Source: Gammaproteobacteria bacterium (GTDB taxonomy: Bacteria; Pseudomonadota; Gammaproteobacteria; JABDGN01). From it: a stretch of DNA of 63,260 nucleotides. Location of the stretch: the NCBI GenBank assembly GCA_034112285.1, contig JAWUVP010000083.1:1-63260 (forward strand), in the 5' to 3' direction. A program made the position numbers and the translations under genes. Every line of letters starts with the position of its first letter. Position 1 is the first letter of the stretch. Positions 41,953-63,260 of this stretch are shown here, piece after piece. The notes below the pieces were generated by a model, which saw only the letters and a program-made list of their open reading frames with translations, made no database searches and was not told the origin of the DNA.

Positions 41953-42229
41953 TAAAACAGCTCTGCCACCGAATTCCGCGCGTGGTGTGTGAGGCCAATG
42001 GGGAAATGAGGTCGAACATTTATTTTCTTTTTATTGTCGACTTGCCTAATATAATAACCGCATTAGCTTAAGATATAATCAACAGGATTTAAAGGTGCAC
42101 GTTATTTCAGGGCAAGAGTGTCAAAACTTCAGCCATGTGGTTAACTATCCCTTAAGCTTTGTTTGATAAGATATTATTAAGATGAAATGTCTAGCTTAAT
42201 CTATTTATCTAATATTTCTTGAGGAACAC

Positions 42230-43546: not shown

Positions 43547-43732
43547 ACGTTAATCTCCTTATTTCTATGACTGCTGCACCAATCAATATTTCATTACCTT
43601 CAGGCACAATATTTATAATAACAGACGTTTTGCATACCGGGTAATTAGCTGGGAGCACCATATCACTAAAGCTCTTTAAATTGTGCAAGGTCGGCTCAAA
43701 ACATGCTATATTCGCGCAAACAGGAAAAAAAC

Positions 43733-44902: not shown

Positions 44903-44905
44903 ACC

Positions 44906-48215: not shown

Positions 48216-48310
48216 TATTAATAATTATACGATTTTCTAGCCCGTTTTGCGAGTACCGAAGTGACGCGGTCTCCCTGTGTGCCAGGATAGTTGTTGTCTT
48301 TTTCAGCATT

Positions 48311-48590
48311 CAATTACTTGGCAAAATTAGTGAGCTTTTGTTTGGTAAACGAATAATGGTTTCCCAGCGATAAGCGTCAATAATTCCTAATACCCCTTGG
48401 GTTACGCACAAGCCATCCATGAATAAGATGATATCAAGCCTTGGGAAATAGCCTTTTAATCTTTCAGTTGAATGCTCAAATGCCCCAGTTCACAGTTCTG
48501 CTTACCTCTATCACACTCAAGCGCATTATTTTCACAGTAGAGAAATTTAGACATTAGCGGCAAGGTTAAACCGTTGCCGGCTTCTGACAT
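48311..48590 (-). pseudogene. Frameshifted remnant of a DDE transposase
   Basis: The reverse strand gives MSEAGNGLTLPLMSKFLYCENNALECDRGKQNCELG. After a frame change it continues FEHSTERLKGYFPRLDIILFMDGLCVTQGVLGIIDAYRWETIIRLPNKS. The ..RL...FPRL.....DGL....V......W..II pattern recalls the second-D region of IS4-like transposases. No intact ORF. Confidence 0.4.
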
Positions 48591-48734
48591 TTGAGGCTGA
48601 ATTCTTATCGCTCCTCGCGTCATAATCGATTAAAATAGGGTAAATCTATATTATTTTAGCCCGACAATATTAGCTTCTTAAGACTCTGGAAGCCAGCGAT
48701 TTTGCGGTCTTCTAGATCGGTTCTTCCGAGCTGG

Positions 48735-49712
48735 CTAATCAAAACTGTCCTGCCACAGCCCTTCATAATTGGTAGTCGATAACCATTTCCTATATTCCAT
48801 GGCAACCAAATCATTTTTAGTTAATTGATTCATTAAGCTAATGTTTTTTTGACGATTATTATCCTGACCTACTAGCACCCGAGAATCTTCTTCATTAACT
48901 TTTGTAAGAATGAATTCCATAAAAAATTTTGCGATTGGAGTAGAGCTGATTTTAAAGGTAAGGGTGTCAAAGTCTGAATAAACGTAATGAAAAACTCGCG
49001 TCATATTTTTTTGGTAAGGCACTATAAAGAATAAAGCCACCATTTTCTTCTTATGTTTCAAAAACTCATAATGAATTAAGTTTGGATAGACAAACTTAAT
49101 ATTAGTAAACTTTATTTTCCCATGTTTTTTATGGTCCACCGTTACGTTAAAACCAGATTCCGTTTTTTCACCTAGTTGGAACTCCATGGCATTAAAGCGG
49201 AACAGCCTGTTCAGGGTGTTTTTATGCACAAATGGCACGTGTGATATATCAAGAATGTTTTCCAAATACAAATCAAATGGCGCTTGCACATCCCAAGAGT
49301 AGACAAGGGAATTTTTTTCTTTGCGATCAAATTCAATTTCATCATGACATTGTTCTTTGTCGCCAGCCCATATCCAAATAACATTATATTTTTCTACGCA
49401 AGGTAAGGCTGTAGCATTTGCTGCTTTAGGGATGGGGAGTGTTCCACCATCAAGGGATGGTATTTTACTGCAGACGCCCTTTTTTGCAAAGCACCAGTTG
49501 TGGTAAGCACAGGTTAACTCACCATGCCTAACTCGACCAAGTGATAGTGGCGCGCCTCTATGTGGACAATGATCTTCTAAGCAAGTGGCCATGCCATCTT
49601 TATCACGATACAAAACGAAGGCTTTATCAAAAAGGTAAATTTTTACTGTTTTATTGGCCTTCAGTTTTTTAGTTAATAATACAGGGTACCAATTTTGTTG
49701 AAAATCAAACAC
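48735..49712 (-). CDS. Rieske [2Fe-2S] non-heme-iron oxygenase
   Basis: Rieske motif CPHRGAPLSLG...CAYHNW (C-x-H...C-x2-H). Mononuclear iron motif NILDISHVPFVH (D-x2-H-x4-H). GTG start overlapping the upstream stop (TAGTG). Confidence 0.85.
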   Translation of the reverse strand: MFDFQQNWYPVLLTKKLKANKTVKIYLFDKAFVLYRDKDGMATCLEDHCPHRGAPLSLGRVRHGELTCAYHNWCFAKKGVCSKIPSLDGGTLPIPKAANATALPCVEKYNVIWIWAGDKEQCHDEIEFDRKEKNSLVYSWDVQAPFDLYLENILDISHVPFVHKNTLNRLFRFNAMEFQLGEKTESGFNVTVDHKKHGKIKFTNIKFVYPNLIHYEFLKHKKKMVALFFIVPYQKNMTRVFHYVYSDFDTLTFKISSTPIAKFFMEFILTKVNEEDSRVLVGQDNNRQKNISLMNQLTKNDLVAMEYRKWLSTTNYEGLWQDSFD

Positions 49713-51403
49713 TAGTCTTTTTTCCTTATGTTTTGAAATGGGATAAAGGGAGGTATATCATCTTGAGAAACCACTATCTCAATCACGAATGTTTTTTCAT
49801 TATTAGCAGCATAATTTTCAAGTGCTGTTTCAAGTTGCTTGGTCGTAACACACCGGTAACAAATTAGTTGCGGGGCATCGCACAAGCTTTGTACAGCCTG
49901 GGCAGGATGTACATCTGCATAGGTTGCACTAATCACTCTATTTTCGAAAAATAATTTTTGGCGAGTAGCACACATACCATGTTTATTGTTGTTGAATATA
50001 ATAAAGAGTATGGGTAACTTAAGTTCCACTGCGGTATGAATTTCAAAACCACTCATTAAAAATCCACCATCACCGACGAAGACAATTGAGCGCTGATCTT
50101 TGCTTGAATACAGTTGACCACCAATGGCCGCAGGTATGGCATAGCCCATATTACCCATTCCCAGAGCAATGAAGGTTTTCGTGTGATCAGAAAATTTCAG
50201 GTAATGTGCCGCAGTCGCAACACAATCACCAGCATCAAAATAGATATTATCCACTTTACTCACTGATGACTGGAGCTGATTTAAAATGGGGATGAGGTTA
50301 TGGTCACTGGCCACAATTTGTCGTTTGAATTTAGGAACGGTATTATCCCTTCCATTTTTGACTATAGATAGATTAGGTGATAGCTCCATCAGTGTATTTA
50401 AAATATGATTAGTCTCACCTTCAATAACATTATCTATATTAACAATACATTTCGCTAAACCAGCATCTTTACCAATATACACACAGTTGGTTTCATTCAT
50501 GCTATTACTAATGCCAAAAGTCGTCATCACGCTTAGGTCACACTCTATCGCTATGAATAAATCAACGTGTTTCTCTATATACTGATGCAAATCGGTATGA
50601 CCACAGATACCAACAAGACCAATATGTCTTGCATTATTTTGCAGACTGGCTCCAACATCTGCTAATGAGCTAGCAATAGAACAATTGTAATGATTGGAAA
50701 ATTTTTCTAGCACATTAGCATCTAATGAGAACTTCACATGTTTGCCAAGCAAAATCAATGGGTTATTTGCAGCTTCGAGCCGAGAATTAATCTGGTGATA
50801 CAGTTGGTTAGGCGTATTTAATTCTCTCTGCCGAAAATTATTGAGCTGGAACAAAGAGGTGTAGTCGGTAAGGTCGACTTCCATCGTAAATAAATCACTC
50901 GGTATCAACAACACGCCAGGTCCAAGACGTTTGTCAAAAATTGTGGTTAAGATATGTAGCATTGTTTGTTGAAAATCAGTTTTTGAGCTGATTTTCACAA
51001 CACATTTGCTGATTGATTCAAATAATTGCACAGCATTAACTGTATTTTTCGCTCCAGATGAATCTTGAAAAGCGCCCTTACCTTCAAGTCTGGTAGGAGG
51101 TTGCCCAATAATGGCAAGCAAGGGTACCCCATCAGCAAAAGCTTCTGCAATACCAACGGCAAGATTCATCATGCCACCACCAGAGGTTGCGCAACAAACG
51201 CCAAGTGTATTATGTGTTCTGGCTACGCCATCAGCCATAAAAGCGGCCGCGGATTCATGCTTTGCTAAAATAGCATCAATTTTACCATCACCCACACGAT
51301 ACATAGCATCATGAAAATGTTCAATATTTGCACCGCTGACGCCAAAAACATATCGTACCTGTAATGTTTTTAAAATTTCAACCAAGGCATCTGCTAGTAA
51401 CAT
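49712..51403 (-). CDS. Thiamine-diphosphate-dependent enzyme, acetolactate-synthase large-subunit-like
   Basis: N-terminal Pyr domain (ADALVEILKTLQVRYVFGVSGANIEHFHDAM). C-terminal ThDP motif GDGGF...(24 aa)...NNN (VGDGGFLMSGFEIHTAVELKLPILFIIFNNNKHG). RBS GAGGA. Confidence 0.85.
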   Translation of the reverse strand: MLLADALVEILKTLQVRYVFGVSGANIEHFHDAMYRVGDGKIDAILAKHESAAAFMADGVARTHNTLGVCCATSGGGMMNLAVGIAEAFADGVPLLAIIGQPPTRLEGKGAFQDSSGAKNTVNAVQLFESISKCVVKISSKTDFQQTMLHILTTIFDKRLGPGVLLIPSDLFTMEVDLTDYTSLFQLNNFRQRELNTPNQLYHQINSRLEAANNPLILLGKHVKFSLDANVLEKFSNHYNCSIASSLADVGASLQNNARHIGLVGICGHTDLHQYIEKHVDLFIAIECDLSVMTTFGISNSMNETNCVYIGKDAGLAKCIVNIDNVIEGETNHILNTLMELSPNLSIVKNGRDNTVPKFKRQIVASDHNLIPILNQLQSSVSKVDNIYFDAGDCVATAAHYLKFSDHTKTFIALGMGNMGYAIPAAIGGQLYSSKDQRSIVFVGDGGFLMSGFEIHTAVELKLPILFIIFNNNKHGMCATRQKLFFENRVISATYADVHPAQAVQSLCDAPQLICYRCVTTKQLETALENYAANNEKTFVIEIVVSQDDIPPFIPFQNIRKKD

Positions 51404-51416
51404 CGTGAATCCTCGG

Positions 51417-53081
51417 CTATAGCGTAATTGTTTTAAGAATGGATAAGCTTTCTTGTTTAAGATATTGCAATAGGAGCTGCTTTTTTATTTTTAAGGATGA
51501 TGTCATGGGTAATTGCTCAACAATAAAGATTTTTTTGACCCGTCCACTGGGCTCTAGCTCGACTTGGCGTACTTTAAAGGCTGCGGTTAACGAGTGGCTA
51601 TGTGCTTCTAGGTTTTTCAGATTGATTTTAAAATCTGGTGTAAGGATAGCGACAGCTACTATTTCTTCATCTATTTCATAAGGAATAATCGCGAGTTCTT
51701 TTATGCCTTCAATATCGGCATAAACCTCTTCTAATCGATTTAAAAAATATTTTTTACCATCCAATGCAACTAAAACATCCTGTTGCCGTCCCATGATTGT
51801 AATATTACCATCCACTATTTTTGCCAAATCCCCTGTTTTTAGCCAGCCATCAACAAGCACCTCATTCGTAGCACCAGGATTATTGAAATACCCCATCATT
51901 ACAGCCGGGCCTTTAATCCAAAAGAGACCAATATTGTCCTGATTAACTTCAGTCAACTTTGTTTGCAGACCTCGAAAAGGCGTTCTTTTTAAATGATTAT
52001 AATTCAGCACTAGCGTTTGACTAATAGCACAACCTCCAGTTTCAGTCATCCCCCAACCGTCAACAACAGGCAATCCTAATTTAAAAAAATATTTTTGTAG
52101 TGATACAGGGAGCGCAGAACCACCACTGAAAATCATCTTAACGCGCCCACCGAATTTTTTATGTACAGGATAAAAGACATACTTTCTAATATTGAATTTA
52201 TAAAATGTTATTTTTTCAGTAATACTGCACAAGCCAGATAGCACAAGAAAAATTGCTTTTTTAACAGTAGACTTTTCTAAGTTACTTTTTATCATTTCAG
52301 CATAGACTTTAAGTAATTTTGGCACAACAGGAAAAAGGCTTGGCTTAAAGGTACTGAAAAATTTACGCATCAGGTTGGGATTCATGTCATTAATAATACC
52401 AAGACGACCGCCATTTAAAAATATCATGAAGAAATTAATAGTAAATCCAGAAACATGATGGTTGGGGAAGAACCACATTACTTTCACTGTTTCAATCACT
52501 TTTTTAGGCATGAAATGACAGAGATTATGAGTCATGAATAGAATGTTTTTCGTGCTCAGCATAACACCTTTTGGGCTATTATTTGTGCCAGAAGTATGCA
52601 TGATTACGCTAGGCTTATTTGGTAAGTTAATATGTTGTGAATCGGTTATATTCACTCTAGGAAGTTGTGTGGCAGGATTAACAAAATCTACTAGATCAAT
52701 AAACGTCTCAATGCCTTTAAATGCTCGAAGCTCTGATCGTTTTTTTTGTGACACTAACGTATATTTCGGCTGCAAATCTGCTAGACATTGTTGCAATTGG
52801 TCAGATGGCATCTTCGAGTCGACAGGCGCTAAAATAGCATTAAGTTTAAGGCCAGCTAATAGACCTATGGTAAAATTAATACTGTTTTCAGTAAAAAAAA
52901 CAATAATATCTTGTGCTTGAACATAGGTAGATAGATGGTCACTTAGCGTGATCACCTTTTCTAATAACTGCCTATAGCTAATAGAAATAATGTCGCCATT
53001 AGACAGATATTCATCAATAGTTCTTTCAGGGTTATTGAGCATCACTTTTTCAAGTGCGGCGTACAAAACAGTTGAGCTCAT
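51417..53081 (-). CDS. Adenylate-forming acyl/aryl ligase (AMP-binding; fatty-acyl-AMP/CoA-ligase-like)
   Basis: A3-like HTSGTNNSPKGV, GWGMTETGG and WLKTGDLA motifs, with a C-terminal catalytic Lys region SSLKIKK. Confidence 0.85.
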   Translation of the reverse strand: MSSTVLYAALEKVMLNNPERTIDEYLSNGDIISISYRQLLEKVITLSDHLSTYVQAQDIIVFFTENSINFTIGLLAGLKLNAILAPVDSKMPSDQLQQCLADLQPKYTLVSQKKRSELRAFKGIETFIDLVDFVNPATQLPRVNITDSQHINLPNKPSVIMHTSGTNNSPKGVMLSTKNILFMTHNLCHFMPKKVIETVKVMWFFPNHHVSGFTINFFMIFLNGGRLGIINDMNPNLMRKFFSTFKPSLFPVVPKLLKVYAEMIKSNLEKSTVKKAIFLVLSGLCSITEKITFYKFNIRKYVFYPVHKKFGGRVKMIFSGGSALPVSLQKYFFKLGLPVVDGWGMTETGGCAISQTLVLNYNHLKRTPFRGLQTKLTEVNQDNIGLFWIKGPAVMMGYFNNPGATNEVLVDGWLKTGDLAKIVDGNITIMGRQQDVLVALDGKKYFLNRLEEVYADIEGIKELAIIPYEIDEEIVAVAILTPDFKINLKNLEAHSHSLTAAFKVRQVELEPSGRVKKIFIVEQLPMTSSLKIKKQLLLQYLKQESLSILKTITL

Positions 53082-53098
53082 GAGAAGGCTGTTTCCTT

Positions 53099-53344
53099 TT
53101 AGATATCAGTTGAGTTGATCAAGTTATCTGCCACGTCTTGAATTGTGTCTATTTCTTCGTATTTATCATAGGCAATAGTTTTATTCATTTTACTATCAAT
53201 GGCGGTTAGAAGTGACATTATTTGGACAGAGTCCATCGAAAGATCATTTGTCAAACTCATCCCTGGACTAATTTCACCAACAGGTTTGCCTAATTGCTTA
53301 GCCACGATTACAACCAATTTTTCGACGGTCTTAGATGTTGACAT
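53099..53344 (-). CDS. Free-standing acyl/peptidyl carrier protein
   Basis: About 81 aa with the phosphopantetheine attachment motif LSMDSVQIMSL. Immediately upstream (in transcription order) of the ligase. Confidence 0.8.
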   Translation of the reverse strand: MSTSKTVEKLVVIVAKQLGKPVGEISPGMSLTNDLSMDSVQIMSLLTAIDSKMNKTIAYDKYEEIDTIQDVADNLINSTDI

Positions 53345-53421
53345 AATGCACCTCATATTCAAGTTTAATTGCTAAAAGGACGCAGTAAGAAGCTACGTGC
53401 AATCCCGGTATTTGTGAAGTT

Positions 53422-54066
53422 TTATAACAACTTATTTTTATGACGATATTCTAAAATATGCTTAATGTTTTGCAACTCAACGTAATGTCCAGCATAAAAA
53501 AGTGGCCATAAATCTCCCACCCAATACTCACGTTCTTTTAGTGCTGTTTCAGGGTAAGGATTCTCATCATAATTTGGGTGACGACAATTAGTCCAAAGTA
53601 CAACACAACCGGGTTTGCCTAAAACAAGTTCAGCAGGTACAACACGCATAAGGTAAATCATCCATAAATGCTGACTTTGATCCCAAGCACAGTGATAATC
53701 TATAGTCATTGCCTCTTTATTAGTGATAGTTTTGAAAAACATTTTGGTATCTTCACCATTCGTTTCACCGATGGCATCTATTGAAACAAACAGTCCTGGT
53801 TGTTCAGTGTCAGGAATAACCTCACGTGTACTATAAGTCCATTCAGCCAAATTATAACTATCAGCCAGATAATTAAACGCGTCTTCAGGTGGGCAATCGA
53901 TATATTCTTCAACAGTAATATACTGGCCATACACAGCATCATGTTCATAGACTGAGTGCGTTAGTTCAACAGAATGCATTTGCATTTTTTCAAGAGGGCA
54001 ATTTTCAACGCGTAAAACACCGTTAAGCGCATTAATTTCGGATTCAATTTTTGAGTTTGCGGGCAC
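53422..54066 (-). CDS. Hypothetical protein, 214 aa (fold not recognised; SRPBCC/cyclase-like is only a guess)
   Basis: GTG start overlapping the dehydrogenase stop (TAGTG), so probably translationally coupled. No motif I can name. Confidence 0.6.
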   Translation of the reverse strand: MPANSKIESEINALNGVLRVENCPLEKMQMHSVELTHSVYEHDAVYGQYITVEEYIDCPPEDAFNYLADSYNLAEWTYSTREVIPDTEQPGLFVSIDAIGETNGEDTKMFFKTITNKEAMTIDYHCAWDQSQHLWMIYLMRVVPAELVLGKPGCVVLWTNCRHPNYDENPYPETALKEREYWVGDLWPLFYAGHYVELQNIKHILEYRHKNKLL

Positions 54067-55241
54067 TAAGCTCTCCTTTTGGCTGTGTTAGTCTTTTGAT
54101 TGAAATCAAGATATCGTACACTTTGCTCTATCAAGATACTAGAAATTTTATTAAGTGTCTTCATCGGCCAATTCTCATCGGCAACCTCAACACTTAATGC
54201 CTGGCTATAAAGTAATGAGTTACCAGCACTCGTTAGCCAACTAGGAAATACAATGATCCCTTTAGCCGTGGCTTGGTCACGTAATGCTAGGTTAGTAAAA
54301 GGTAAATTGGCACCTGCTAGAATATAATTGGTCACACTATCACTAAAGGTATGGTCTTGTATCACATCAAGCAGTTCAGCATCAATGGCATAGCGGTTAG
54401 CACATAAAGCGATACAATTCGCTTTGTGCTCTCTTAGTGCGCTATGCCAATGTACACGAATATTGGTGGGATCTGCCGGTTGCCACTGTGTGGCAGCTGA
54501 TGAAATATAGAGTGGGTAAAGTTGTTCAAGAGTACTAAAATTAGGATTTTCAACGCGCAGTTGAATGAGCTGCTCAATATCAATACCAGTTTCACAGGCC
54601 ATATAGCCCGAGTGATCAACAATATTGATAATATCAGCGATGCCACTCTGATGCAGATAGTAGGCTAGGCTGTTACCAATTTTTCCGAAACCTTGTAAAA
54701 TAATTCGTAACCGTTGTTGGCTAACGTGTTTCATCAGTTCTGTGATGCTGTAACCCACTGCAGATTTTTCAAGATTGAAATATTTGTTTATTGGTAATGT
54801 AACGCGATCTGCAAGTTTGGAACACTGATTTGGGATGCCTAATTTTTCTGCGTGCATTTGTCCTAAGGCATAAAAAGCAGAATCAAGCCCCATCCCTTGA
54901 ACAATTTTTTCAATGACGGCTGCATCCGTATTCAAATCAGCGCCGGTGCCCCATGACTGCTTAAGCTGTGGTTCACAATATTGTAAAAATTCAGTTAACA
55001 CCGCCAATGAATCTGGGTGCTGTGGATTAAATCGAATGCCAGCCTTCGCACCACCAAAAGGTATTTCATTAAGTTGGTTTTTTAGTGTCATGTTTTGAGC
55101 CAGTTCACTCACCTCAGATAATGAGGCATCTTGTTGCATGAATGTACCACCACCACAGGCACCATTGATTAACTGATTGATAACAAGCCACCCATCAGCG
55201 TCGAAAGTTTGGCTATTCCAGTTAATGATATGTTGTGGCAT
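54066..55241 (-). CDS. Glu/Leu/Phe/Val-family amino-acid dehydrogenase
   Basis: Family active-site signature IPFGGAKAGIRFNP (G-G-x-K). Rossmann motif LQGFGKIGNSLA. The track start 55256 is a TTG, so the ATG at 55241 (MPQHIINW) is preferred. Confidence 0.85.
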   Translation of the reverse strand: MPQHIINWNSQTFDADGWLVINQLINGACGGGTFMQQDASLSEVSELAQNMTLKNQLNEIPFGGAKAGIRFNPQHPDSLAVLTEFLQYCEPQLKQSWGTGADLNTDAAVIEKIVQGMGLDSAFYALGQMHAEKLGIPNQCSKLADRVTLPINKYFNLEKSAVGYSITELMKHVSQQRLRIILQGFGKIGNSLAYYLHQSGIADIINIVDHSGYMACETGIDIEQLIQLRVENPNFSTLEQLYPLYISSAATQWQPADPTNIRVHWHSALREHKANCIALCANRYAIDAELLDVIQDHTFSDSVTNYILAGANLPFTNLALRDQATAKGIIVFPSWLTSAGNSLLYSQALSVEVADENWPMKTLNKISSILIEQSVRYLDFNQKTNTAKRRA

Positions 55242-55383
55242 AAGTAATTGTCTCAATAATAAATAGTTAAGCTATCAAATATCCTTTTGTTGTTCCTCGG
55301 CATGATAGTATTATCTTTACCTTTTCTGTCCTTTGGCCTCTAATTATACAGAAAACTATGCAAATAGAAAAGATCTTTTTCTT

Positions 55384-55410
55384 TTTGTACACCTATTTGT
55401 ACACCTATTT
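55384..55410. promoter_or_regulatory. Tandem 12-bp direct repeat, each copy containing the palindrome TGTACA
   Basis: TTTGTACACCTA TTTGTACACCTA TTT, about 145-170 bp upstream of the dehydrogenase start on the minus strand. Confidence 0.4.
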
Positions 55411-55535
55411 CAATATTGCTGAGAATTTAAGTCACCAAGATTACACCGCATATCATCGTTAAAATATATGAATTTTAAATGGATTACCTAAGAAGGAATA
55501 TTTTCAGAAATAAAATCACGATTTTAGGATAGAAA

Positions 55536-56823
55536 GTGCAGGTTAAAGTGGCCCCCAAAGTCAACACCAAAAAGTGACTGGTATAAGAGGTAGTCTCCTG
55601 TTAATAAACACTAAAATTCAAGCAATCATTATCCCTTGAGCTGATTCACCAGCATAAACCTGGGCAGGTGTTTTATATCCCAAGGATTGATGATTTCGCT
55701 CTTGGTTGTAATAAACAAAATACTCACCAATATATTTGTTAGCTTCAGCGACAGTCGTGAGGTTCCTGAGGTAAACACACTCATATTTCACACTTCGCCA
55801 TAATCGCTCTATAAAAATATTGTCCAATGCGCGACCTTTACCATCCATGCTGAGCTGGATGTTTTTTGCCAAAATTATTGCTGTGAATTTAGGGCTCGTA
55901 AACTGTGAACCCTGATCACTATTAAATATTTCACAGCTACCCGTCGCTAAAGCCACATTCAGTGTTTCAATACAAAAGTCTACTTCCATTGTGGTACTGA
56001 TAGACCATGCAATAACGTAACGACTAAACCAGTCTATAATCGCGACTAAATAGACAAAGCCACCTGATAACCGAATGTAAGTGATGTCAGTGCTCCACAC
56101 CTGATCGACTTGATTTATTAACAACCCGCGTAATAAATAAGGATACACCTTATGCGCTACATTCCGTTTGCTCAGGTTTTTCTTTGGATAAATGGCCTCT
56201 ATCCCCATGAGCTTATATAACCGCTGTAATCGATTACGATTCACTGTGTATCCCTGCAAGTGAAGATAAACCACCATTCGTCGAGTTCCGATAAAAGGGT
56301 GTCGTGTATACTCTTCATCTATCAGATGCATCAATTCAATTGATAGACTATCCATGCAAACTGCTTCGTAATATAAGCTAGAGCGTGGGAGTGATAGCAA
56401 CTCACATTGTCGCCGGACACTAAGTGCTTTGCTATCATTATCAACCAGTTTTCGGAGCTTAGCTGCTGAACAGTTCAGATTTTTTTTCAACCAGTCGCGT
56501 TCAACTGTTAATCGTCCAATTTGTTCATAAAGCTCATCGACCAAGCTTTCCTGAGCATTCTCCTTGCCACGGCGCTTGTCTGAAAAAATATCAGGCACAC
56601 CCGCTAGAAGTTGCTTTTTCCAGGTTGATATCTGTGTGCTGTGCACCTTATATTTTGACGTTAATTCATTTTGGGTAAGTGCCCCTTTCACTGCTTCCAG
56701 GGCTATCTTACCTTTTTCTGCTCCGCTGTAACTCTTGCGCTTTCCTGTCATTTTTGCTCCTCGTTTGGTGGAGAATAACATCTTATTCACTGGTACAGTT
56801 TTAGGGTCCATTATATGTTGCAC
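55536..56823 (-). mobile_element. IS3-family insertion sequence (about 1.29 kb)
   Basis: Contains an OrfAB-type transposase. Imperfect terminal inverted repeats GTGCAGGTTAAAGTGGCCCCCAAA (left) versus GTGCAACATATAATGGACCCTAAA (reverse complement of the right end). No clear target-site duplication seen. Confidence 0.7.
55618..56751 (-). CDS. IS3-family transposase, OrfA and OrfB fused in one frame
   Basis: HTH part MTGKRKSYSGAEKGKIALEAVKG..TQNELTSKYKVHSTQISTWKKQLL. Leucine zipper. DDE integrase core (WSTDITYI ... NSDQGSQFTS ... ERLWRSVKYE). An A8 run (T8 at 56480-56487 on +) lies at the usual frameshift site. Confidence 0.85.
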   Translation of the reverse strand: MTGKRKSYSGAEKGKIALEAVKGALTQNELTSKYKVHSTQISTWKKQLLAGVPDIFSDKRRGKENAQESLVDELYEQIGRLTVERDWLKKNLNCSAAKLRKLVDNDSKALSVRRQCELLSLPRSSLYYEAVCMDSLSIELMHLIDEEYTRHPFIGTRRMVVYLHLQGYTVNRNRLQRLYKLMGIEAIYPKKNLSKRNVAHKVYPYLLRGLLINQVDQVWSTDITYIRLSGGFVYLVAIIDWFSRYVIAWSISTTMEVDFCIETLNVALATGSCEIFNSDQGSQFTSPKFTAIILAKNIQLSMDGKGRALDNIFIERLWRSVKYECVYLRNLTTVAEANKYIGEYFVYYNQERNHQSLGYKTPAQVYAGESAQGIMIA

Positions 56824-56848
56824 CGATAAGCTATTAATAAGAATTATA

Positions 56849-58030
56849 TTATATCTTCAATTGTCTCCTAAAATAGATCATACATATCAATACACTAACA
56901 ACAACAAAAGACACCGCTAGCGGAAGCTGTGAATTTTCGTTTAATATAATTGCGAAAAAACTAATAAAGCTTGTTACGATAATTTGAATTACGCCATATA
57001 ATGCACTAGCAACGCCAGCACAGTGAGCAAATGGCTCAATTGCCTCAATCATTGTATTAGCAGAGATAAATGCAACACCGATAAAAGTGAAAAACATAGG
57101 TATCAAGATGTAAATTAATTTTGTTCCACAAAGATAATATAAGAAAATCATTAAAAAAGAACTTACTATTAACGAGAAAATTCCAATAACAATCATTCTA
57201 TGCACTCCCATACGCATAACCAAAAATCCATTCACAAAGCTGCCTACACTAAGGGCTAAAGCGTTAAAGAATGAAAGCCAACCATACTGTATGACTGTCA
57301 ATCCTAATTTATGCTGATAGAGAAATGGAGTGATGGTCATATACAATATGACACAAGCATATGCTAGACCAGAGGAAAAGGCATTAGTAAAAAACTTCTT
57401 ATGTAGTAATATTTCTCTACAAGTTGCACCAAGACGTTTCCATACTAATTTTTTTTTATGTTCAGATAACAATGTTTCAGGACAAAAAAGAAGTATCGCG
57501 ATAGCGACTAAGCTAGAAATTATAAATAATAAGAAGAAATTTGCTTGCCAATTGAACATATCTTGCACATATCCACCAATAGTTGGGGCAAGTGGCGGAG
57601 TTAAAGTAATTACCATAGTCAGATATGAACTTATTTTGGCCAACTTGTTACCAGCATATCTATCTTTCATCATTGCTCTAATTACAGCACCTGGTGCTCC
57701 AGCTCCAACACCTTGTATCAGTCTACTAATCAGAAAAATATAAACTGAAGTAGAAACGATTGCTAACAATGAACCCATGATGAAAATCAGCATTCCTATA
57801 AGTATTATTGGTTTTCTGCCATAGCTATCAGATAAAAAGCCATATAATAACTGTACAGTCCCCATACCCAATAAATATATTGATATTGAGATTTGAATCA
57901 AACCTGGGTTAGCGTGAAAATATTTTGCAATATAAGGAAAGGAAGGAATAAAGCTATCTATTGCAAACTGACTAACAATTGCTAATAAAACAATAAACAG
58001 AAAAATATCTTTACCTTTTTTTAAGGTCAT
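56849..58030 (-). CDS. MFS efflux transporter, Bcr/CflA (DHA1) type
   Basis: LLYGFLSDSYGRKPIIL, SRLIQGVGAGAPG and a 12-TM profile. Its ATG overlaps the NRPS TGA (ATGA at 58027-58030). Confidence 0.85.
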   Translation of the reverse strand: MTLKKGKDIFLFIVLLAIVSQFAIDSFIPSFPYIAKYFHANPGLIQISISIYLLGMGTVQLLYGFLSDSYGRKPIILIGMLIFIMGSLLAIVSTSVYIFLISRLIQGVGAGAPGAVIRAMMKDRYAGNKLAKISSYLTMVITLTPPLAPTIGGYVQDMFNWQANFFLLFIISSLVAIAILLFCPETLLSEHKKKLVWKRLGATCREILLHKKFFTNAFSSGLAYACVILYMTITPFLYQHKLGLTVIQYGWLSFFNALALSVGSFVNGFLVMRMGVHRMIVIGIFSLIVSSFLMIFLYYLCGTKLIYILIPMFFTFIGVAFISANTMIEAIEPFAHCAGVASALYGVIQIIVTSFISFFAIILNENSQLPLAVSFVVVSVLICMIYFRRQLKI

Positions 58031-61000
58031 TGTATTTCCTTTTTAAGGATATCATTAAAAATATTCACGAGACTATCTAGCTCCTCTTTGAATATCGACC
58101 AATGATCAGCATTAAGCTGATAATAATCGACTACAGCACATAAAGACTTCCATTTTTCAATGTCACCATTTGCTATTGCTATAAAATAATTATTAACTAG
58201 TTCACTTGCTTCAGGATCTTCTAATTTCCCTTTAGCTTTAATAAAAGCTACATCCAAACTGCTCGGCTCTAATTTGCACTTTTTAAGCATTTCCATTTCA
58301 GCTATAATAACCTTCTTTTGGCGCAGAGCAAAGCTAGAAGGTAGCTTGCTATCTAGTCGTTTTTCCAATAGCTCATCTAGTAGCACATTTAAATTATTTA
58401 TGTCTAACATGTCATGAAGAAGATAGCTATCTATAATAATTGTTTTATAGATAGAAACGCCTTTTTTTCCTAGAAGACAGGCTATTTTGTAGGCTAAAAC
58501 ACCACCGAAAGACCATCCAGCTATAAAAATAGATTCATTTTTAATAATATTATCTAATATATAAGCAGTATATAATTTAGCCAACACATCAATGTCATTT
58601 ATGAGTTCACCTTCACTAAATAAATTATAAGAATCCACGCCATACACTGAATATTTTTCATCTAATTTTTCAGCAAGAGGTAGATATGAATAACATCCCC
58701 CACCTCCTGGATGTATAATGAATAACTTCACCGATGACGAGTCTTCGTTCAATTTAACTATCGGCTCATATAGTAATTTATTTTTTTCCACTTGAAGTTC
58801 AGTAGCTTGTTTTTTTATCGTCGTATTTTTAAAAATCCATTGGCTTGAAATATTTATCTTGAATTCTTTTTTCAATTGTTCTGCTAACTGCATGGATTTC
58901 AAGGAATCACCGCCTTGTATAAAAAAACTATCGTTTACCGATATTATATTCGTTTGCAAGACATCCCGCCAAATTTTATAAAGTTTGTTCTCAGTAGGTG
59001 TGGATGGTTTATCATTCACACAACCAAAACACTCTTTATCTGCCAACTCTCTCAGCTGTCTATAGTCTGTTTTCCCAGCTTTTGTCAAAGGAATAGCAGC
59101 TAACATCTTATATATACCTGGAAGCATGAATATTGGTAACAAATCATCCATATATTCTCTAAGATCAGACAAACAGAATTCATGTTGTGATTCGTAGAAA
59201 ATAGCAATCATCTGATTCTTATTAACGACAGTAGCCACCCGAGAAATATCGCCCATACTTAAAAGTGCAGCTTCAATCTCCCCTAACTCTATTCTAAAAC
59301 CACGTATCTTCACTTGGCCATCTATACGACCTATGAACTGTAGTTTTCCTTCGGGTAACCAGCGCACCAGATCACCCGTCCGATACAGCTTCCCTTCACC
59401 ATAAGGATTCGCTATAAATTTCTCCCGGGTTAATTCTGCCCTGTTCAAATATCCTCGAGCTACGCCATCACCACCAACATGTAATTCTCCTGGGACACCA
59501 GGAGGACATAACAGTCCATATTTGCTCAGTACGTAACATGTTGTATTTTTCACGGGTGTACCAATTGAAACCTCTTGTTCTATTTCATTATTATTACTCA
59601 CAATCTCTTTAGTAGAAAATACCGTGTTCTCAGTTGGCCCATAACAATTAATTAACGAAACCGACTTGTTGTTTTTAAAAAATGTTTTTACAACATTTGA
59701 TTGTAATTTTTCACCACCGAGATAGATTGTAGAAAGTTTTGAAAACAATTCGTTATCACTCCTTAGAACATTGTCAAAAAATGATGGTGTTAAAAAAATA
59801 TGTTGAATTTTTTTCTGATATAAGTAGGATTTAAACTTACCAACATCCAACAAAGTTTTCTTATTCACACATACTAATGTAGCACCTCGCAACAATGTAA
59901 CCCAAACTTCAAAGGTTGCCGCATCAAAAGATATATTTGATAAATGCGCAACTCTTTCGCTAGGCGTGAATTTTATATAATCTGAATCGTATGCCAAGCT
60001 AGTAACCGAGTGTTGCTCCACCATAACGCCCTTTGGCTTGCCTGTAGAACCAGAAGTATAAAGAACATAAGCCAAATCACTTCCACACACGTCAATATCA
60101 GGCCTATCCCCTTGATAGTTATCTAAAGTAGCATCTACACTCTCTAAACAAATAATTTTATTTTGAGACGTCGACATACAAAACTTACTTTCAGAAAGTA
60201 TTTTAGTACTCAAGACTAATTCACACGCGGAATCTTCAAGCATATACTGTAAGCGTGACTCGGGGTATTCTGGGGAAAGCGGCATATAGGCTCCACCCGA
60301 TTTTATAATCGCTAACATCGCTATGACTGAATTGATACCTCGTTCTAAGCATACACCGATCAGCATATCTCTTAACAATGGCTTATTCGTTCTTCGCTGA
60401 TAGTGTTCTCGAATAAAATGGGCTAGTTGATTAGTTTTCTTATCAAGTTCACCATATGTTAGTTCTCGCTCACCTTCAATCAATGCTATATTTTGTGCAT
60501 TAAGTTTTGCTTGATCCGAAAACAGCTCTGCTAATGATTCTTTCTTTGGATAAGCTTGCACGGTATTATTCCATGTACTTAATAGTTTTGTTTTTTCATC
60601 ATTATCAAGCAACGGCACTTCCATCATTTTCTTGTTTGGTGATATTATTATCCACTTTAACACTAAATCCAAATGTAACAATAAATTTTCTACATAATAT
60701 GGTAAGAAAACCTCCCTATCATATGCGATATCAACCATCAAATTATCACTCAAGCTAATTGAAATGACTAAAGGGTAATTTGTCTTTTCTTGCCCCAGTA
60801 ATTTATCAAAATTAAGCTTATTCGCTTCATCTTTACTGTCACCGACCGGATAATTTTCAAAGACATACAAACTGTAAAATAAAGGCAGCTCATTACTAAT
60901 ATCACTCTGAGCCTGAACCTCACCCAATGTCAAATAACTGTACTGATTCGATAATTGCATACGCTCATGTTGGCGCTGCAAGTGACTCAACACATCACCC

Positions 61001-63260
61001 TCAGTATCTACCGTAAAACGTAACGGCAATGCATTGATGAATAAACCCACCATCTTATCAACATCGACCAGCTCAGCAGGACGCCCCGATACTGTCACGC
61101 CCATCAGCACATCATCACTGTCACTATAACGTGATAACACTATTCCCCATGCCAATTGCATTAACGCATTCAGCGTCACATTATTCTCACGTGCAAACTG
61201 CTCACATGACCTCGTTAACACCTCGGATAGCTCATGACGAACCTTACCTAATGACCTTATGGGCTTATGAATATCTAGCAGACCTTGGTTTATTCCTAAT
61301 GGGGTTGGCCCCTCTAGACCTGCCAACTCTTCTCGCCAGTATGCCTTACCTTCTGATTTGTCTTGACTCTGTAACCAACCTATATATCGCTCATAGCGTG
61401 GTGGGGTAATTAACTTAGCTGACCGTCCTGACAATAATGCACTGTAACGGGCTTTTAACTCATTAAACAGTAACGGTAAACACCAACCATCGAGTAATAT
61501 GTGATGATGACTCCATATAAAGCGATATTCTGTTTCGCTGAACTTAATGCAATGGAAGCGCATGATACAAGGTTTGCTTACATCAAATCCTCGATTTCTA
61601 TCCTCTAGTAAACAATCGGTATATCTTTGCTCTTGATCTAATTGATTTAAGCTGCTCCAATCTTCTTCATTCCAAGGTAATGCCACTTCTTTTTGGACAA
61701 TTTGAACTGGGTTATTTAAGGTCTCCCAAGCAAAACGGGTACGTAGAATGGCGTGAGATTTTACGATACCATGCCAAGCTTGTTTTAATGACGCTGTATT
61801 TACCTGCCCTGTATGATGCCAGTGTAGCTGAGTGTTATATTGGTCTGAACTCGGCGAATGCAGCGCATGGAAGAGAAGTCCTTCCTGTAATGGCGTTAGT
61901 GCATAGATATTGTCTATTGTATTGGCCTTATTTAAACCTTCTCCTGTTAGCAGGTTATCCAATGATGCTTGATCTAAATTTGATAATGGGTAGTCTGAGG
62001 GGGTTCTTTGCAACGTGCTTTTTAAGCTGCAACAATCTATTACTTGAACTAATGATTGATAAAACTTACTCTCCCAACCATTATATAATTCTTCGTCATA
62101 TCTCACATCAAAAGTTAGTATGTTATTGAGAACATAACCATTAATTTCAAGAACATTCTCTGCGAACGAATTAGCATGAGAAATATCGACACCTGAGTAC
62201 TCGTTTGTAATATTTATATTTTGTTCATTACTTCCATTAGAATCTAATACGCCTAAATAGTTAAAAACTATATCAATATCATCAAGAATTGACAAATACT
62301 TTTGTGTTTCCACAGAGCCATTATACCGAAGCAAGCCGAAGCCTAATCCTTTAGCTGGGACATTTCGCATTTGCTCTTTGACATCTTTTATTAATCCACC
62401 TACATCTTTAGACGAACATTCAGATCTTAGTTTTAAAGGATAAATCGAAGTAAACCATCCAACAGTCTCAGATAAATCTATCTCACTTGATATCTCTTCT
62501 CTTCCATGACCTTCCAGATTCAAATGCACTGAATCAACACCATTAAACTTATAGCACGTCAATAAAAATGCGGTCATAAACAAATCATTAATCGTTGTAT
62601 TAAACTTATTCGATGAACTGTTTAATAATTGAATAGTTTGTCTTTCACAAAGTTCTATTTTACTTGTTTTTAATTCATGTCGCCTTATATGATTCCGAGG
62701 AACGTAGTTATTTGCTACGTTTTTCCAATACATCAACTCATCACTGTTTTGTATGCTAGTAGTGTACTCTTGCAAAAAACCACTCCACTTTTTATAACTT
62801 GATGATTTATATAAATCCTCTGCATAACCACTTAATAACTTATTTAAATCTGACAAAATTATTCGCCATGACACCATATCAATAATCAAATGATGAGCAA
62901 CCATGAGTAATTTCTTTGCTGATGGACTGACAAACAAAACAAACCTTACAATCGGTCCGTCTTCGATATTAATATAACAGTGCTCCGCATCACAGAGAAC
63001 AAGCATTTCTTTGTGATCAATTGTTCCATCGAGTTCTATTTCTTGATAACTGTACTGATCATTATCACTATATTTTTGCAACCACCCGCAATCATTCCTA
63101 TTAAATTTTATTCTAAAGCAATCGTGATGCTTTACTAGCTTCCTTATTGACTCCTCAATATCGAATTTAGAAACATCATTGTTAATATTAAATATGAAGC
63201 TCTGATTAAAGTGATTTTTCGCAGGAAGCTCTTTACTAAAAAACCATTTCTGTATAGGTA
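58027..63260 (-). CDS. Non-ribosomal peptide synthetase, C-terminal part: E - C - A - T - TE (5' end outside the window)
   Basis: The frame stays open to nt 63260 (PIQKWFFSKELPAKNHFNQSFIF..., the start of an E domain).
E motif: HHLIIDMVSWRI.
C motifs: LTPLQEGLLFH, HHILLDGWC.
A motifs: LAYVLYTSGSTGKPKG, FDAATFE, NCYGPTE, YRTGDL, GRIDGQVKIRGFRIELGEIE, PLTKAGKTD.
T motif: GGDSLKS (Ser codon 58903-58905).
TE motif: GWSFGG. Confidence 0.92.
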   Translation of the reverse strand, partial: PIQKWFFSKELPAKNHFNQSFIFNINNDVSKFDIEESIRKLVKHHDCFRIKFNRNDCGWLQKYSDNDQYSYQEIELDGTIDHKEMLVLCDAEHCYINIEDGPIVRFVLFVSPSAKKLLMVAHHLIIDMVSWRIILSDLNKLLSGYAEDLYKSSSYKKWSGFLQEYTTSIQNSDELMYWKNVANNYVPRNHIRRHELKTSKIELCERQTIQLLNSSSNKFNTTINDLFMTAFLLTCYKFNGVDSVHLNLEGHGREEISSEIDLSETVGWFTSIYPLKLRSECSSKDVGGLIKDVKEQMRNVPAKGLGFGLLRYNGSVETQKYLSILDDIDIVFNYLGVLDSNGSNEQNINITNEYSGVDISHANSFAENVLEINGYVLNNILTFDVRYDEELYNGWESKFYQSLVQVIDCCSLKSTLQRTPSDYPLSNLDQASLDNLLTGEGLNKANTIDNIYALTPLQEGLLFHALHSPSSDQYNTQLHWHHTGQVNTASLKQAWHGIVKSHAILRTRFAWETLNNPVQIVQKEVALPWNEEDWSSLNQLDQEQRYTDCLLEDRNRGFDVSKPCIMRFHCIKFSETEYRFIWSHHHILLDGWCLPLLFNELKARYSALLSGRSAKLITPPRYERYIGWLQSQDKSEGKAYWREELAGLEGPTPLGINQGLLDIHKPIRSLGKVRHELSEVLTRSCEQFARENNVTLNALMQLAWGIVLSRYSDSDDVLMGVTVSGRPAELVDVDKMVGLFINALPLRFTVDTEGDVLSHLQRQHERMQLSNQYSYLTLGEVQAQSDISNELPLFYSLYVFENYPVGDSKDEANKLNFDKLLGQEKTNYPLVISISLSDNLMVDIAYDREVFLPYYVENLLLHLDLVLKWIIISPNKKMMEVPLLDNDEKTKLLSTWNNTVQAYPKKESLAELFSDQAKLNAQNIALIEGERELTYGELDKKTNQLAHFIREHYQRRTNKPLLRDMLIGVCLERGINSVIAMLAIIKSGGAYMPLSPEYPESRLQYMLEDSACELVLSTKILSESKFCMSTSQNKIICLESVDATLDNYQGDRPDIDVCGSDLAYVLYTSGSTGKPKGVMVEQHSVTSLAYDSDYIKFTPSERVAHLSNISFDAATFEVWVTLLRGATLVCVNKKTLLDVGKFKSYLYQKKIQHIFLTPSFFDNVLRSDNELFSKLSTIYLGGEKLQSNVVKTFFKNNKSVSLINCYGPTENTVFSTKEIVSNNNEIEQEVSIGTPVKNTTCYVLSKYGLLCPPGVPGELHVGGDGVARGYLNRAELTREKFIANPYGEGKLYRTGDLVRWLPEGKLQFIGRIDGQVKIRGFRIELGEIEAALLSMGDISRVATVVNKNQMIAIFYESQHEFCLSDLREYMDDLLPIFMLPGIYKMLAAIPLTKAGKTDYRQLRELADKECFGCVNDKPSTPTENKLYKIWRDVLQTNIISVNDSFFIQGGDSLKSMQLAEQLKKEFKINISSQWIFKNTTIKKQATELQVEKNKLLYEPIVKLNEDSSSVKLFIIHPGGGGCYSYLPLAEKLDEKYSVYGVDSYNLFSEGELINDIDVLAKLYTAYILDNIIKNESIFIAGWSFGGVLAYKIACLLGKKGVSIYKTIIIDSYLLHDMLDINNLNVLLDELLEKRLDSKLPSSFALRQKKVIIAEMEMLKKCKLEPSSLDVAFIKAKGKLEDPEASELVNNYFIAIANGDIEKWKSLCAVVDYYQLNADHWSIFKEELDSLVNIFNDILKKEIQ

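What the first reader, a model, noticed from the sequence alone, without database searches (positions are those of the whole stretch)
48735..63260. AT-rich NRPS-centred biosynthetic gene cluster with an unusual tailoring/precursor set (main candidate for a new system)
All coding sequence from 48735 to the window edge is on the minus strand. It forms one apparent operon. In transcription order it runs:
- NRPS (open at 63260; visible part E-C-A-T-TE)
- MFS exporter (ATGA overlap with the NRPS)
- [IS3 insertion]
- Glu/Leu/Phe/Val-type amino-acid dehydrogenase
- 214-aa unknown protein (TAGTG overlap)
- carrier protein
- adenylate-forming ligase
- ThDP-dependent ALS-like enzyme
- Rieske oxygenase (TAGTG overlap)

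Spot counts of single 60-nt lines give roughly 25-48% G+C here, mostly near 30%. Core lines give roughly 43-53%. With the transposase remnant at 48.3-48.6 kb and the internal IS, this argues for horizontal acquisition. I do not recognise the combination of NRPS, amino-acid dehydrogenase, ThDP carboligase-type enzyme, Rieske oxygenase and ligase/carrier pair as a characterised pathway. It suggests a peptide carrying a non-standard acyl or keto-acid-derived unit. No PPTase, MbtH-like protein or regulator is visible in the window.
Basis: partly seen in the sequence, partly recalled or inferred. Interest (0 to 1): 0.85.

Follow-up and report, generated by a model that had tools for sequence, protein, structure and literature searches.

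The report
Carbazole-type gene cassette beside an NRPS
The region holds two separate AT-rich biosynthetic units that meet at an insertion sequence: the tail of a peptide synthetase with its exporter, and a six-gene relative of the known bacterial carbazole-alkaloid pathway that lacks one essential enzyme here. It is an interesting variant, not a new kind of system.

Summary
All are on the minus strand, and the region is AT-richer than the rest of the contig (about 37% against 44% G+C).

The "214-aa unknown protein" is a clear homologue of the carbazole synthase CqsB2/NzsI (profile E = 8.8e-64 to PDB 6IPV, and the top Foldseek hit). Four of its five catalytic residues align exactly; the fifth has a conserved Asp at or next to its position.

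With the ThDP enzyme, the carrier protein and an amino-acid dehydrogenase, it forms a variant of the known carbazole-type pathway (NzsH/I/J, CqsB1-3). That core occurs in at least 586 species genomes, with no NRPS or adenylating-enzyme gene within 10 kb in the 80 loci inspected.

The six-gene block recurs at 87.5% nucleotide identity in another metagenomic organism without the NRPS or MFS genes. There it has a KASIII-like CqsB1/NzsJ gene, a P450, an amine oxidase and a 397-aa protein. None of these is in the window.

The NRPS-exporter pair and the cassette meet at a 1.27-kb IS3 element with no target-site duplication. Two other contigs leave the NRPS side for different sequence.

Verdict: two juxtaposed units. 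The cassette is a new variant of a known kind and is incomplete as encoded on this contig.

The parts
58027..63260 (-). 3' part of an NRPS gene, cut by the contig end: E - C - A - T - TE (terminal module)
   Evidence: Pfam finds Condensation x2, AMP-binding, PP-binding and Thioesterase. The ORF is open to the edge and starts at the E1 motif PIQKWFF. E-type motifs are visible.
56849..58030 (-). Bcr/CflA-family MFS efflux transporter, translationally coupled to the NRPS (ATGA overlap)
   Evidence: Pfam MFS_1. NCBIfam TIGR00710, 274 bits against a cut-off of 200.9. The NRPS-MFS pair is also found on L001-L004.
55544..56815 (-). IS3-family insertion sequence, about 1.27 kb. The transposase is a single 401-aa ORF at 55618-56823. 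Imperfect terminal inverted repeats: TATAATGGACCCTAAAAC / TAAAGTGGCCCCCAAAGT
   Evidence: Pfam rve, rve_3, HTH_21 and HTH_28. The ends were read. The right end is fixed by the point where L002 and the window diverge. The flanks ...AACA and ACCT... are not a direct repeat.
55242..55543 (-). 302-nt AT-rich (29% G+C) spacer upstream of the dehydrogenase gene; probably holds the cassette's own promoter (inferred)
   Evidence: Apart from the first 15 nt next to the gene, it has no homology to the relative's upstream region. The promoter scan was not informative.
54066..55241 (-). Glu/Leu/Phe/Val-type amino-acid dehydrogenase (391 aa from the ATG). Inferred supplier of the 2-oxo acid, such as indole-3-pyruvate
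   Evidence: Pfam ELFV_dehydrog_N and ELFV_dehydrog. Only distant from GDH and TrpDH/ScyB. 93.6% aa identity to L007, dN/dS 0.16.
53422..54066 (-). CqsB2/NzsI-like carbazole synthase (Bet v1/SRPBCC fold), the '214-aa unknown'
   Evidence: Profile hmmsearch hits 6IPV at E = 8.8e-64. AF2 model pLDDT 87.7. Foldseek top hit is 6ipv_A at E = 3.5e-16. BLASTP gives 37% identity, with Y138, Y166, H194 and E197 aligned to CqsB2 Y144, Y172, H206 and E209. These residues and D97 are invariant in A1.
53099..53344 (-). Free-standing 81-aa acyl carrier protein (Ser in the LSMDS motif)
   Evidence: Pfam PP-binding. Weak NCBIfam ACP matches. Called as 81 aa in the metagenome contigs.
51417..53081 (-). ANL-superfamily adenylate-forming ligase, inferred acyl-ACP ligase for the adjacent ACP
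   Evidence: Pfam AMP-binding. Among free-standing ligases the best solved match is FadD10, 4ir7; NRPS adenylation domains score slightly higher. All NCBIfam matches are below cut-off.
49712..51403 (-). ThDP-dependent acetolactate-synthase-like carboligase; NzsH/CqsB3-type by genomic association
   Evidence: Three TPP domains. A ThDP gene lies next to the CqsB2-like gene in 74 of 80 genome loci. Best solved relatives are BbmA 8x3x and CsmA 8x3z.
48735..49712 (-). Rieske non-haem-iron oxygenase (VanA/PaO-like), inferred tailoring hydroxylase. No reductase partner in the cassette
   Evidence: Pfam Rieske and VanA_C. Best solved relatives are SxtDIOX/SxtT and DdmC. Present in L007-L012. Only one of the 80 genome loci has even a distant (27%) Rieske hit.
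48216..48734 (.). Non-coding spacer between the cassette and the convergent core gene for S-formylglutathione hydrolase
   Evidence: Homology to L007 stops at the Rieske stop codon. No Pfam hit for the small ORFs here. This junction is corroborated by L005 and L006.

Best explanation
Two independent, horizontally acquired biosynthetic units lie side by side and meet at an IS3 element.

Unit A (56849-63260) is the last module of a non-ribosomal peptide synthetase (E-C-A-T-TE) with a translationally coupled Bcr/CflA-type exporter. It finishes and exports a peptide whose penultimate residue is epimerised. The last residue is probably a hydrophobic aliphatic amino acid.

Unit B (48735-55241) is a six-gene variant of the bacterial carbazole-type pathway. 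Every catalytic step below is inferred from homology; none was shown here.
1. The dehydrogenase deaminates an amino acid, most likely tryptophan, to its 2-oxo acid.
2. [quoted passage not shown]
3. The ligase loads a carboxylic acid onto the small ACP.
4. A KASIII-like enzyme should condense the two.
5. The CqsB2-like protein closes the new ring.
6. The Rieske oxygenase hydroxylates the product.

The KASIII-like enzyme of step 4 is not encoded anywhere on this 63-kb contig. Three other accessory genes of the closest relatives are also absent. As encoded here, Unit B is therefore a truncated cluster. It is either a remnant or depends on a gene elsewhere in the genome.
For: Identity of the cyclase:
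- The profile of 38 homologues hits CqsB2 (6IPV) at E = 8.8e-64.
- A confident AF2 model has 6ipv_A as its top Foldseek hit.
- Four catalytic residues named in PMC7466098 align with invariant residues.

Pathway logic: see PMC7466098.

Conserved core:
- In 79 of 80 species-level loci the CqsB2-like gene is followed directly by a KASIII-like gene.
- In 74 of 80 a ThDP gene is within the locus, adjacent in nearly all.
- Natural KASIII::CqsB2-like fusion proteins exist.

Independence from the NRPS:
- The block 48736-55256 recurs at 87.5% nucleotide identity in L007-L012 with no NRPS or MFS upstream.
- L094 and L093 also lack them.
- None of the 80 loci has an NRPS or ligase hit.

Truncation:
- tblastn finds no KASIII, P450, amine oxidase or Unk397 homologue in the window.
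- L007 and L094 carry KASIII, amine oxidase and Unk397.

Junction:
- A complete IS sits between the units, without a target-site duplication.
- L001 and L002 continue from the NRPS-MFS side into other sequence.
- Only the window spans MFS-IS-DH.

The six genes are intact, with dN/dS of 0.05-0.17 against L007.
Against: - Both units are similarly AT-rich (GC3 about 0.27-0.37). Composition therefore does not separate them, and they could have arrived together.
- All six cassette genes are intact and show purifying selection. This fits a working pathway better than a decaying remnant.
- A KASIII-like gene could lie elsewhere in this unfinished genome. The metagenome scan for it found none from the sibling samples, but I could not verify that those samples are in the scanned collection.
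- A ligase-ACP pair is also what a lipopeptide NRPS uses for lipoinitiation.
- The window protein is only 37% identical to CqsB2, and its whole clade is 37-47%. The product need not be a carbazole.
- No direct sequence comparison with NzsH/CqsB3 or NzsJ/CqsB1 was possible.
Confidence: 0.65

Rival explanations
1. One reading: one hybrid, co-transcribed NRPS cluster. The dehydrogenase, ThDP enzyme, ligase/ACP, 214-aa protein and Rieske oxygenase would make a non-standard acyl or keto-acid-derived unit that the NRPS incorporates.
For: - All genes are on the same strand, adjacent and similarly AT-rich.
- A ligase/ACP pair is a typical lipoinitiation device (established knowledge).
- In L007 an NRPS-PKS that starts with a C domain lies about 7 kb from the cassette.
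Against: - The cassette recurs without this NRPS.
- The L007 NRPS-PKS is only 25% identical, lies behind transposase fragments and is absent from the same position in L008.
- None of 80 core loci has an NRPS nearby.
- An IS with no target duplication separates the blocks.
- Sibling contigs show different neighbours on the NRPS side.
Confidence: 0.1
2. The adjacency is an assembly artefact. The IS is a multi-copy repeat, and the assembler joined an NRPS-MFS-IS contig end to an IS-cassette contig end that are not neighbours in the genome.
For: - The window is a metagenome-type contig.
- Contigs L003-L006 break inside the IS.
- L002, from the same sample as L005, crosses the whole IS from the MFS side and exits into unrelated sequence. 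Its IS carries SNPs that differ from the L005 copy.
- L001 shows a third junction.
Against: - L006 carries most of the same IS SNPs as L002 yet is joined to the cassette. The SNPs may therefore mark strains rather than IS copies.
- The window assembler may have had paired-end or long-read support that I cannot see.
- No second IS copy occurs in the 63 kb.
Confidence: 0.2
3. The cassette is a scytonemin-like or sattabacin/xenocyloin-like acyloin pathway (ELFV dehydrogenase plus ThDP carboligase), not a carbazole-type one.
For: - ScyB is an ELFV-family tryptophan dehydrogenase and ScyA a ThDP enzyme (PMC4870267, listed).
- Nostoc and Scytonema ThDP proteins are among the homologues.
- There is a weak NCBIfam match to Trp_DH_ScyB.
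Against: - The ScyB match is 35.6 bits against a cut-off of 600.
- No ScyC-like gene is present.
- The third conserved partner is CqsB2-like.
- Scytonema and Sorangium are already reported to carry NzsH/I/J-type clusters (PMC7466098). This accounts for those ThDP hits.
Confidence: 0.03

Closest known systems
Carbazole alkaloid clusters of Streptomyces: neocarazostatin (nzs) and carquinostatin (cqs). Core enzymes are NzsH/CqsB3 (ThDP), NzsJ/CqsB1 (KASIII-like) and NzsI/CqsB2 (carbazole synthase), with ACP NzsE/CqsB6 and aminotransferase NzsD/CqsB7
   Same: - A CqsB2 homologue with the catalytic Tyr, Tyr, His and Glu conserved.
- An ALS-like ThDP enzyme.
- A dedicated small ACP.
- An enzyme that turns an amino acid into its 2-oxo acid.
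- An oxygenase for tailoring.
   Different: - No KASIII-like CqsB1/NzsJ on the contig.
- An ELFV dehydrogenase replaces the aminotransferase.
- An ANL ligase replaces the KASIII NzsF/FabG route for loading the ACP.
- A Rieske oxygenase replaces the P450.
- No prenyltransferase.
- Only 37% identity to CqsB2.
- The host is an uncultured gammaproteobacterium.
The uncharacterised clade of CqsB2-like/KASIII/ThDP clusters. It occurs in Mycobacterium, Streptomyces, Planctomycetota, Myxococcota and Legionella MAGs. Its presence in S. cattleya, Sorangium and Scytonema is noted in PMC7466098
   Same: - The window's CqsB2-like protein is 52-62% identical to these.
- The ThDP enzyme is 25-47% identical.
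- The Legionella MAG locus (L014/L093) also has the ELFV dehydrogenase and a P450.
   Different: - Nearly all of them have KASIII immediately after the cyclase gene.
- In the inspected loci they have no ligase or NRPS hit. A dedicated ACP and a Rieske gene were not seen either, apart from one distant Rieske hit.
- The mycobacterial version uses an aminotransferase and a MarR regulator.
Scytonemin early steps (ScyB tryptophan dehydrogenase, ScyA ThDP carboligase, ScyC)
   Same: An ELFV-family dehydrogenase feeds a ThDP-dependent acyloin condensation.
   Different: - No ScyC.
- The dehydrogenase is only remotely related to ScyB.
- The cyclase is CqsB2-like.
- An ACP and a ligase are present.
Lipopeptide NRPS lipoinitiation modules (a fatty acyl-AMP ligase plus ACP feeding a starter C domain, for example DptE/DptF; from my own knowledge)
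   Same: A stand-alone ANL ligase next to a stand-alone carrier protein, near an NRPS.
   Different: - The ligase/ACP pair travels with the carbazole-type genes in relatives that lack the NRPS.
- The start of the NRPS, and so any starter C domain, is not in the window.

Membership tests
Carbazole-type (NzsH/I/J, CqsB1-3) biosynthetic cluster | Carbazole synthase (CqsB2/NzsI) homologue with catalytic residues | tested here: met
   - E = 8.8e-64 to 6IPV.
- Foldseek top hit.
- Y144, Y172, H206 and E209 align to Y138, Y166, H194 and E197.
- E105 aligns at or one residue from the invariant D97.
- Identity is only 37%.
Carbazole-type (NzsH/I/J, CqsB1-3) biosynthetic cluster | ThDP-dependent acyloin-forming enzyme (NzsH/CqsB3) | tested here: inconclusive
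   - It is an ALS-like ThDP enzyme with all three domains.
- It is 25-47% identical to the ThDP genes that sit next to CqsB2-like genes in 74 of 80 loci.
- Many of its best homologues appear to share contigs with CqsB2-like proteins.
Carbazole-type (NzsH/I/J, CqsB1-3) biosynthetic cluster | KASIII-like condensing enzyme (NzsJ/CqsB1) next to the cyclase | tested here: not met
   - tblastn with the relative's KASIII finds nothing in the 63 kb (best E = 0.43).
- It is present in 79 of 80 genome loci and in L007, L093 and L094.
- A copy elsewhere in the genome cannot be excluded (one search was inconclusive).
Carbazole-type (NzsH/I/J, CqsB1-3) biosynthetic cluster | Enzyme converting tryptophan to indole-3-pyruvate (aminotransferase CqsB7/NzsD) | tested here: inconclusive
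   No aminotransferase is present. An ELFV dehydrogenase occupies the first position and would do the same job. Its substrate cannot be read from the sequence.
Carbazole-type (NzsH/I/J, CqsB1-3) biosynthetic cluster | Dedicated ACP carrying the acyl partner | tested here: met
   An 81-aa PP-binding protein with a DS motif. The loading route differs: a ligase instead of KASIII/FabG.
Carbazole-type (NzsH/I/J, CqsB1-3) biosynthetic cluster | Product is a tricyclic carbazole | not testable with these tools
   This needs chemistry. No member of the clade to which the window protein belongs has been characterised, as far as the searched literature shows.
   the cassette or its core occurs without this NRPS in every relative examined.
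   A 1.27-kb IS3 element and a 302-nt spacer lie between the MFS and dehydrogenase genes. There are alternative junctions in L001 and L002. Transcription itself was not testable.
IS3-family insertion sequence | DDE (rve) transposase with an HTH domain, terminal inverted repeats, 3-5 bp target duplication | tested here: inconclusive
   The transposase domains and imperfect inverted repeats are present. No flanking direct repeat was found, which fits recombination between copies. The transposase is one continuous ORF with no frameshift.

The most novel reading that the evidence does not exclude
The juxtaposition is real and functional. In an uncultured, probably host-associated gammaproteobacterium, a carbazole-type cassette has lost its KASIII partner and has been rewired. 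Its ACP-bound or ThDP-derived intermediate would be handed to the neighbouring NRPS, giving a peptide-alkaloid hybrid of a type not yet described.
Probability: 0.07. Interest if true: 0.7.

Novelty: new variant of a known kind. Interest (0 to 1): 0.35.

Why it matters
- It removes a false lead. The key "unknown" protein is a carbazole-synthase homologue, and the NRPS is a neighbour rather than the centre of the cluster.
- It adds a gammaproteobacterial variant to a pathway characterised only in Streptomyces. In this variant a dehydrogenase, a ligase/ACP pair and a Rieske oxygenase replace an aminotransferase, a KASIII/FabG route and a P450.
- The CqsB2-like/KASIII/ThDP trio belongs to a large uncharacterised clade. 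It occurs in at least 586 species genomes, including many non-tuberculous mycobacteria and Legionella-like bacteria, and its product is unknown.
- That clade is a better target than this truncated copy. The complete relatives L007/L008 and L094 are better starting points for heterologous expression.

Tried and rejected
- Scytonemin-like reading (ScyA/B/C): rejected. No ScyC, the ScyB match is far below cut-off, and the partner is CqsB2-like.
- Exact-sequence look-ups of the ThDP, dehydrogenase and transposase proteins found nothing. The cluster representative P0001 did work.
- The literature search for BbmA/CsmA, the closest solved ThDP structures, found nothing relevant. Their function is unknown to me.
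- The promoter/terminator scan gave counts equal to the shuffled expectation and is uninformative on the operon question.
- Rfam and tRNA scans of the window found nothing.
- Pfam on the small ORFs at 48.2-48.7 kb gave no support for a transposase remnant.
- The metagenome scan for a KASIII-like gene from the same organism returned six unrelated contigs. It is inconclusive because I could not check whether the source samples are in that collection.
- Composition cannot separate the NRPS from the cassette, because both are AT-rich.
- The intergenic flanks of the cassette have no homology to any fetched locus other than the sibling contigs.

Full report
**Observation**

All ORFs from 48735 to the edge are on the minus strand, with the stated order and overlaps. 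Pfam confirms each assignment:
- Rieske + VanA_C: 48735-49712
- ThDP enzyme with its N, M and C domains: 49712-51403
- AMP-binding ligase: 51417-53081
- PP-binding carrier protein: 53099-53344
- 214-aa protein with no Pfam hit: 53422-54066
- ELFV dehydrogenase: 54066-55241
- IS3-type transposase: 55618-56823
- MFS transporter: 56849-58030
- NRPS with Condensation x2, AMP-binding, PP-binding and Thioesterase: 58027 to the edge

The NRPS frame is open to base 63258 and begins at the epimerisation-domain motif PIQKWFF. EGHGRE, TVGWFTSIYP and FNYLG follow, so E-C-A-T-TE is right.

The region is AT-richer than the rest. Its genes have 33-41% G+C and GC3 of 0.27-0.37. Core genes have 43-46% and GC3 of 0.37-0.44.

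The window is a whole 63,260-nt contig. It comes from an uncultured gammaproteobacterium. The best named SecD relatives are "MAG Gammaproteobacteria" at 67% and Coxiellaceae at about 52%.

**What the "unknown" protein is**

The 214-aa protein belongs to a well-conserved family with 829 clusters at 90% identity. A few members are tagged Polyketide_cyc2 or START.
- A profile of 38 members hits one solved protein, CqsB2 of Streptomyces exfoliatus (6IPV), at E = 8.8e-64.
- An AlphaFold model (pLDDT 87.7) has 6ipv_A as its best Foldseek match. Bet v1/ARO-CYC folds follow.
- CqsB2/NzsI is the cofactor-free carbazole synthase of carquinostatin and neocarazostatin biosynthesis. Its proposed catalytic residues are E105, Y144, Y172, H206 and E209 (PMC7466098).
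- They correspond to D97 (at or one residue from E105), Y138, Y166, H194 and E197, all invariant in the family.

**Pathway logic**

In Streptomyces the steps are as follows:
1. An aminotransferase makes indole-3-pyruvate.
2. The ThDP enzyme NzsH/CqsB3 couples it to pyruvate.
3. [quoted passage not shown]
4. CqsB2 closes ring A.

The review stresses that CqsB1 and CqsB2 must act together, because the intermediate is unstable.

The window encodes a ThDP enzyme, a CqsB2 homologue and a dedicated ACP. An amino-acid dehydrogenase could replace the aminotransferase. An ANL ligase could load the ACP; among free-standing ligases its best solved match is FadD10. A Rieske oxygenase could act as a tailoring enzyme.

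**Comparative genomics**

A scan of one genome per species found at least 586 genomes with a relative of the cyclase. Among the best 80 loci:
- 79 have a KASIII-like gene immediately downstream.
- 74 have the ThDP gene within the locus, adjacent in nearly all.
- The order is cyclase-KASIII-ThDP in Gram-negative bacteria and ThDP-cyclase-KASIII in actinobacteria, as in nzsH-I-J.

A mycobacterial example adds only an aminotransferase and a MarR regulator. A planctomycete example adds an MMPL transporter.

Natural KASIII::cyclase fusion proteins exist.

None of the 80 loci has an NRPS or adenylating-enzyme hit within 10 kb.

All members, the Streptomyces ones included, are 37-47% identical to CqsB2. 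This is therefore a distinct clade. I found no paper that characterises it. PMC7466098 already notes NzsH/I/J-type clusters in S. cattleya, Sorangium and Scytonema.

**Closest relatives of the window's cassette**

L007-L012 come from another metagenome series. They match the window at 87.5% nucleotide identity over exactly 48736-55256, from 15 nt upstream of the dehydrogenase start to the Rieske stop. In those loci:
- The six genes are flanked upstream by an amine oxidase, a KASIII-like gene and a divergent P450.
- A 397-aa protein with no family assignment lies downstream.
- No NRPS or MFS gene is adjacent.

L094 is a third variant, with 75% identity in the cyclase. Its order is dehydrogenase - cyclase - KASIII - ACP - ligase. 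Unk397 and amine-oxidase homologues lie upstream.

A Legionella MAG (L093) has methyltransferase - dehydrogenase - cyclase - KASIII - ThDP - P450.

The window has no homologue of KASIII, P450, amine oxidase or Unk397 anywhere in its 63 kb. Its six genes are intact, with dN/dS of 0.05-0.17 against L007.

**The junction with the NRPS**

The IS spans about 55544-56815 and has imperfect terminal repeats. Its flanks (AACA | ... | ACCT) are not a target duplication. This fits recombination between IS copies better than a simple insertion into an operon.

Sibling contigs from the same population behave as follows:
- L005 and L006 confirm the IS-cassette-core side.
- L001-L004 confirm the NRPS-MFS-IS side.
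- None spans the IS from MFS to the dehydrogenase.
- L002 crosses the whole IS from the MFS side and then continues into unrelated sequence.
- L001 has only 167 nt of a diverged IS copy, followed by a secreted TAP-like hydrolase.

The linkage is therefore variable among strains, or it may be an assembly join.

**Mechanism proposed**

Unit A finishes a non-ribosomal peptide. The penultimate residue is epimerised. From memory this resembles codes for aliphatic hydrophobic residues. The TE releases the peptide and the coupled Bcr/CflA pump exports it.

Unit B makes, or once made, a tryptophan-derived acyloin that is acylated from the ACP and cyclised by the CqsB2-like enzyme, then hydroxylated. 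All catalytic steps are inferred from homology. On this contig the condensing enzyme is missing.

**Verdict**

The cassette is a new variant of a known kind, the carbazole-type pathway, and is truncated here. The NRPS is an unrelated neighbour.

Interest is moderate to low for this locus. The large uncharacterised clade and the complete relatives are the more valuable leads.

Noticed in passing
window 38339-38563: Three tandem copies of a 76-nt G+C-rich unit (100%, 96% and 66% identity) lie in an intergenic region with strong AT skew. There is no Rfam match.
   Followed up: partly
L013-L092 (genome-contig scan); example L035:8260-12696: The CqsB2-like/KASIII-like/ThDP trio occurs in at least 586 species genomes. 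Many are non-tuberculous Mycobacterium, where it forms a compact ThDP-cyclase-KASIII-aminotransferase-MarR cluster. All members are 37-47% identical to characterised CqsB2, and the product is unknown.
   Followed up: partly
proteins P0136, P0194, P0212 (and P0170): These are natural fusion proteins with KASIII at the N-terminus and the CqsB2-like domain at the C-terminus. P0170 has a ThDP C-terminal domain followed by a partial CqsB2-like segment. They point to an obligate partnership between the two enzymes.
   Followed up: partly
L001:2353-4516 and L002:4178-4318: There are alternative sequences downstream of the same NRPS-MFS pair. L001 has a 167-nt diverged IS fragment and then a secreted TAP-like alpha/beta hydrolase (533 aa). 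L002 has a full IS and then 141 nt of unrelated sequence.
   Followed up: partly
L007:12718-13911 and L094:2936-4135: A conserved 397-399-aa accessory protein of the closest relatives (52% identical to each other) has no Pfam or NCBIfam match. It is absent from the window.
   Followed up: no
window 55618-56823: The IS3-family transposase is one continuous 401-aa ORF containing both the HTH and DDE parts, although an A8 run lies at about 56480-56487. It does not have the usual two-frame orfA/orfB arrangement.
   Followed up: no
window 40666-46123: Two adjacent proteins of 428 and 438 aa have no NCBIfam match. An MFS transporter and a tyrosine recombinase (44906-46123) follow, just before the core frmA/fghA pair. 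This may be another mobile-element boundary.
   Followed up: no
window 1-63260: The window equals a complete 63,260-nt public contig, so the NRPS is cut by the contig end. The nearest named SecD relatives suggest an uncultured gammaproteobacterium distantly related to Coxiellaceae. The relatives' loci carry RCC1-repeat, ankyrin-repeat and Legionella_OMP genes.
   Followed up: partly
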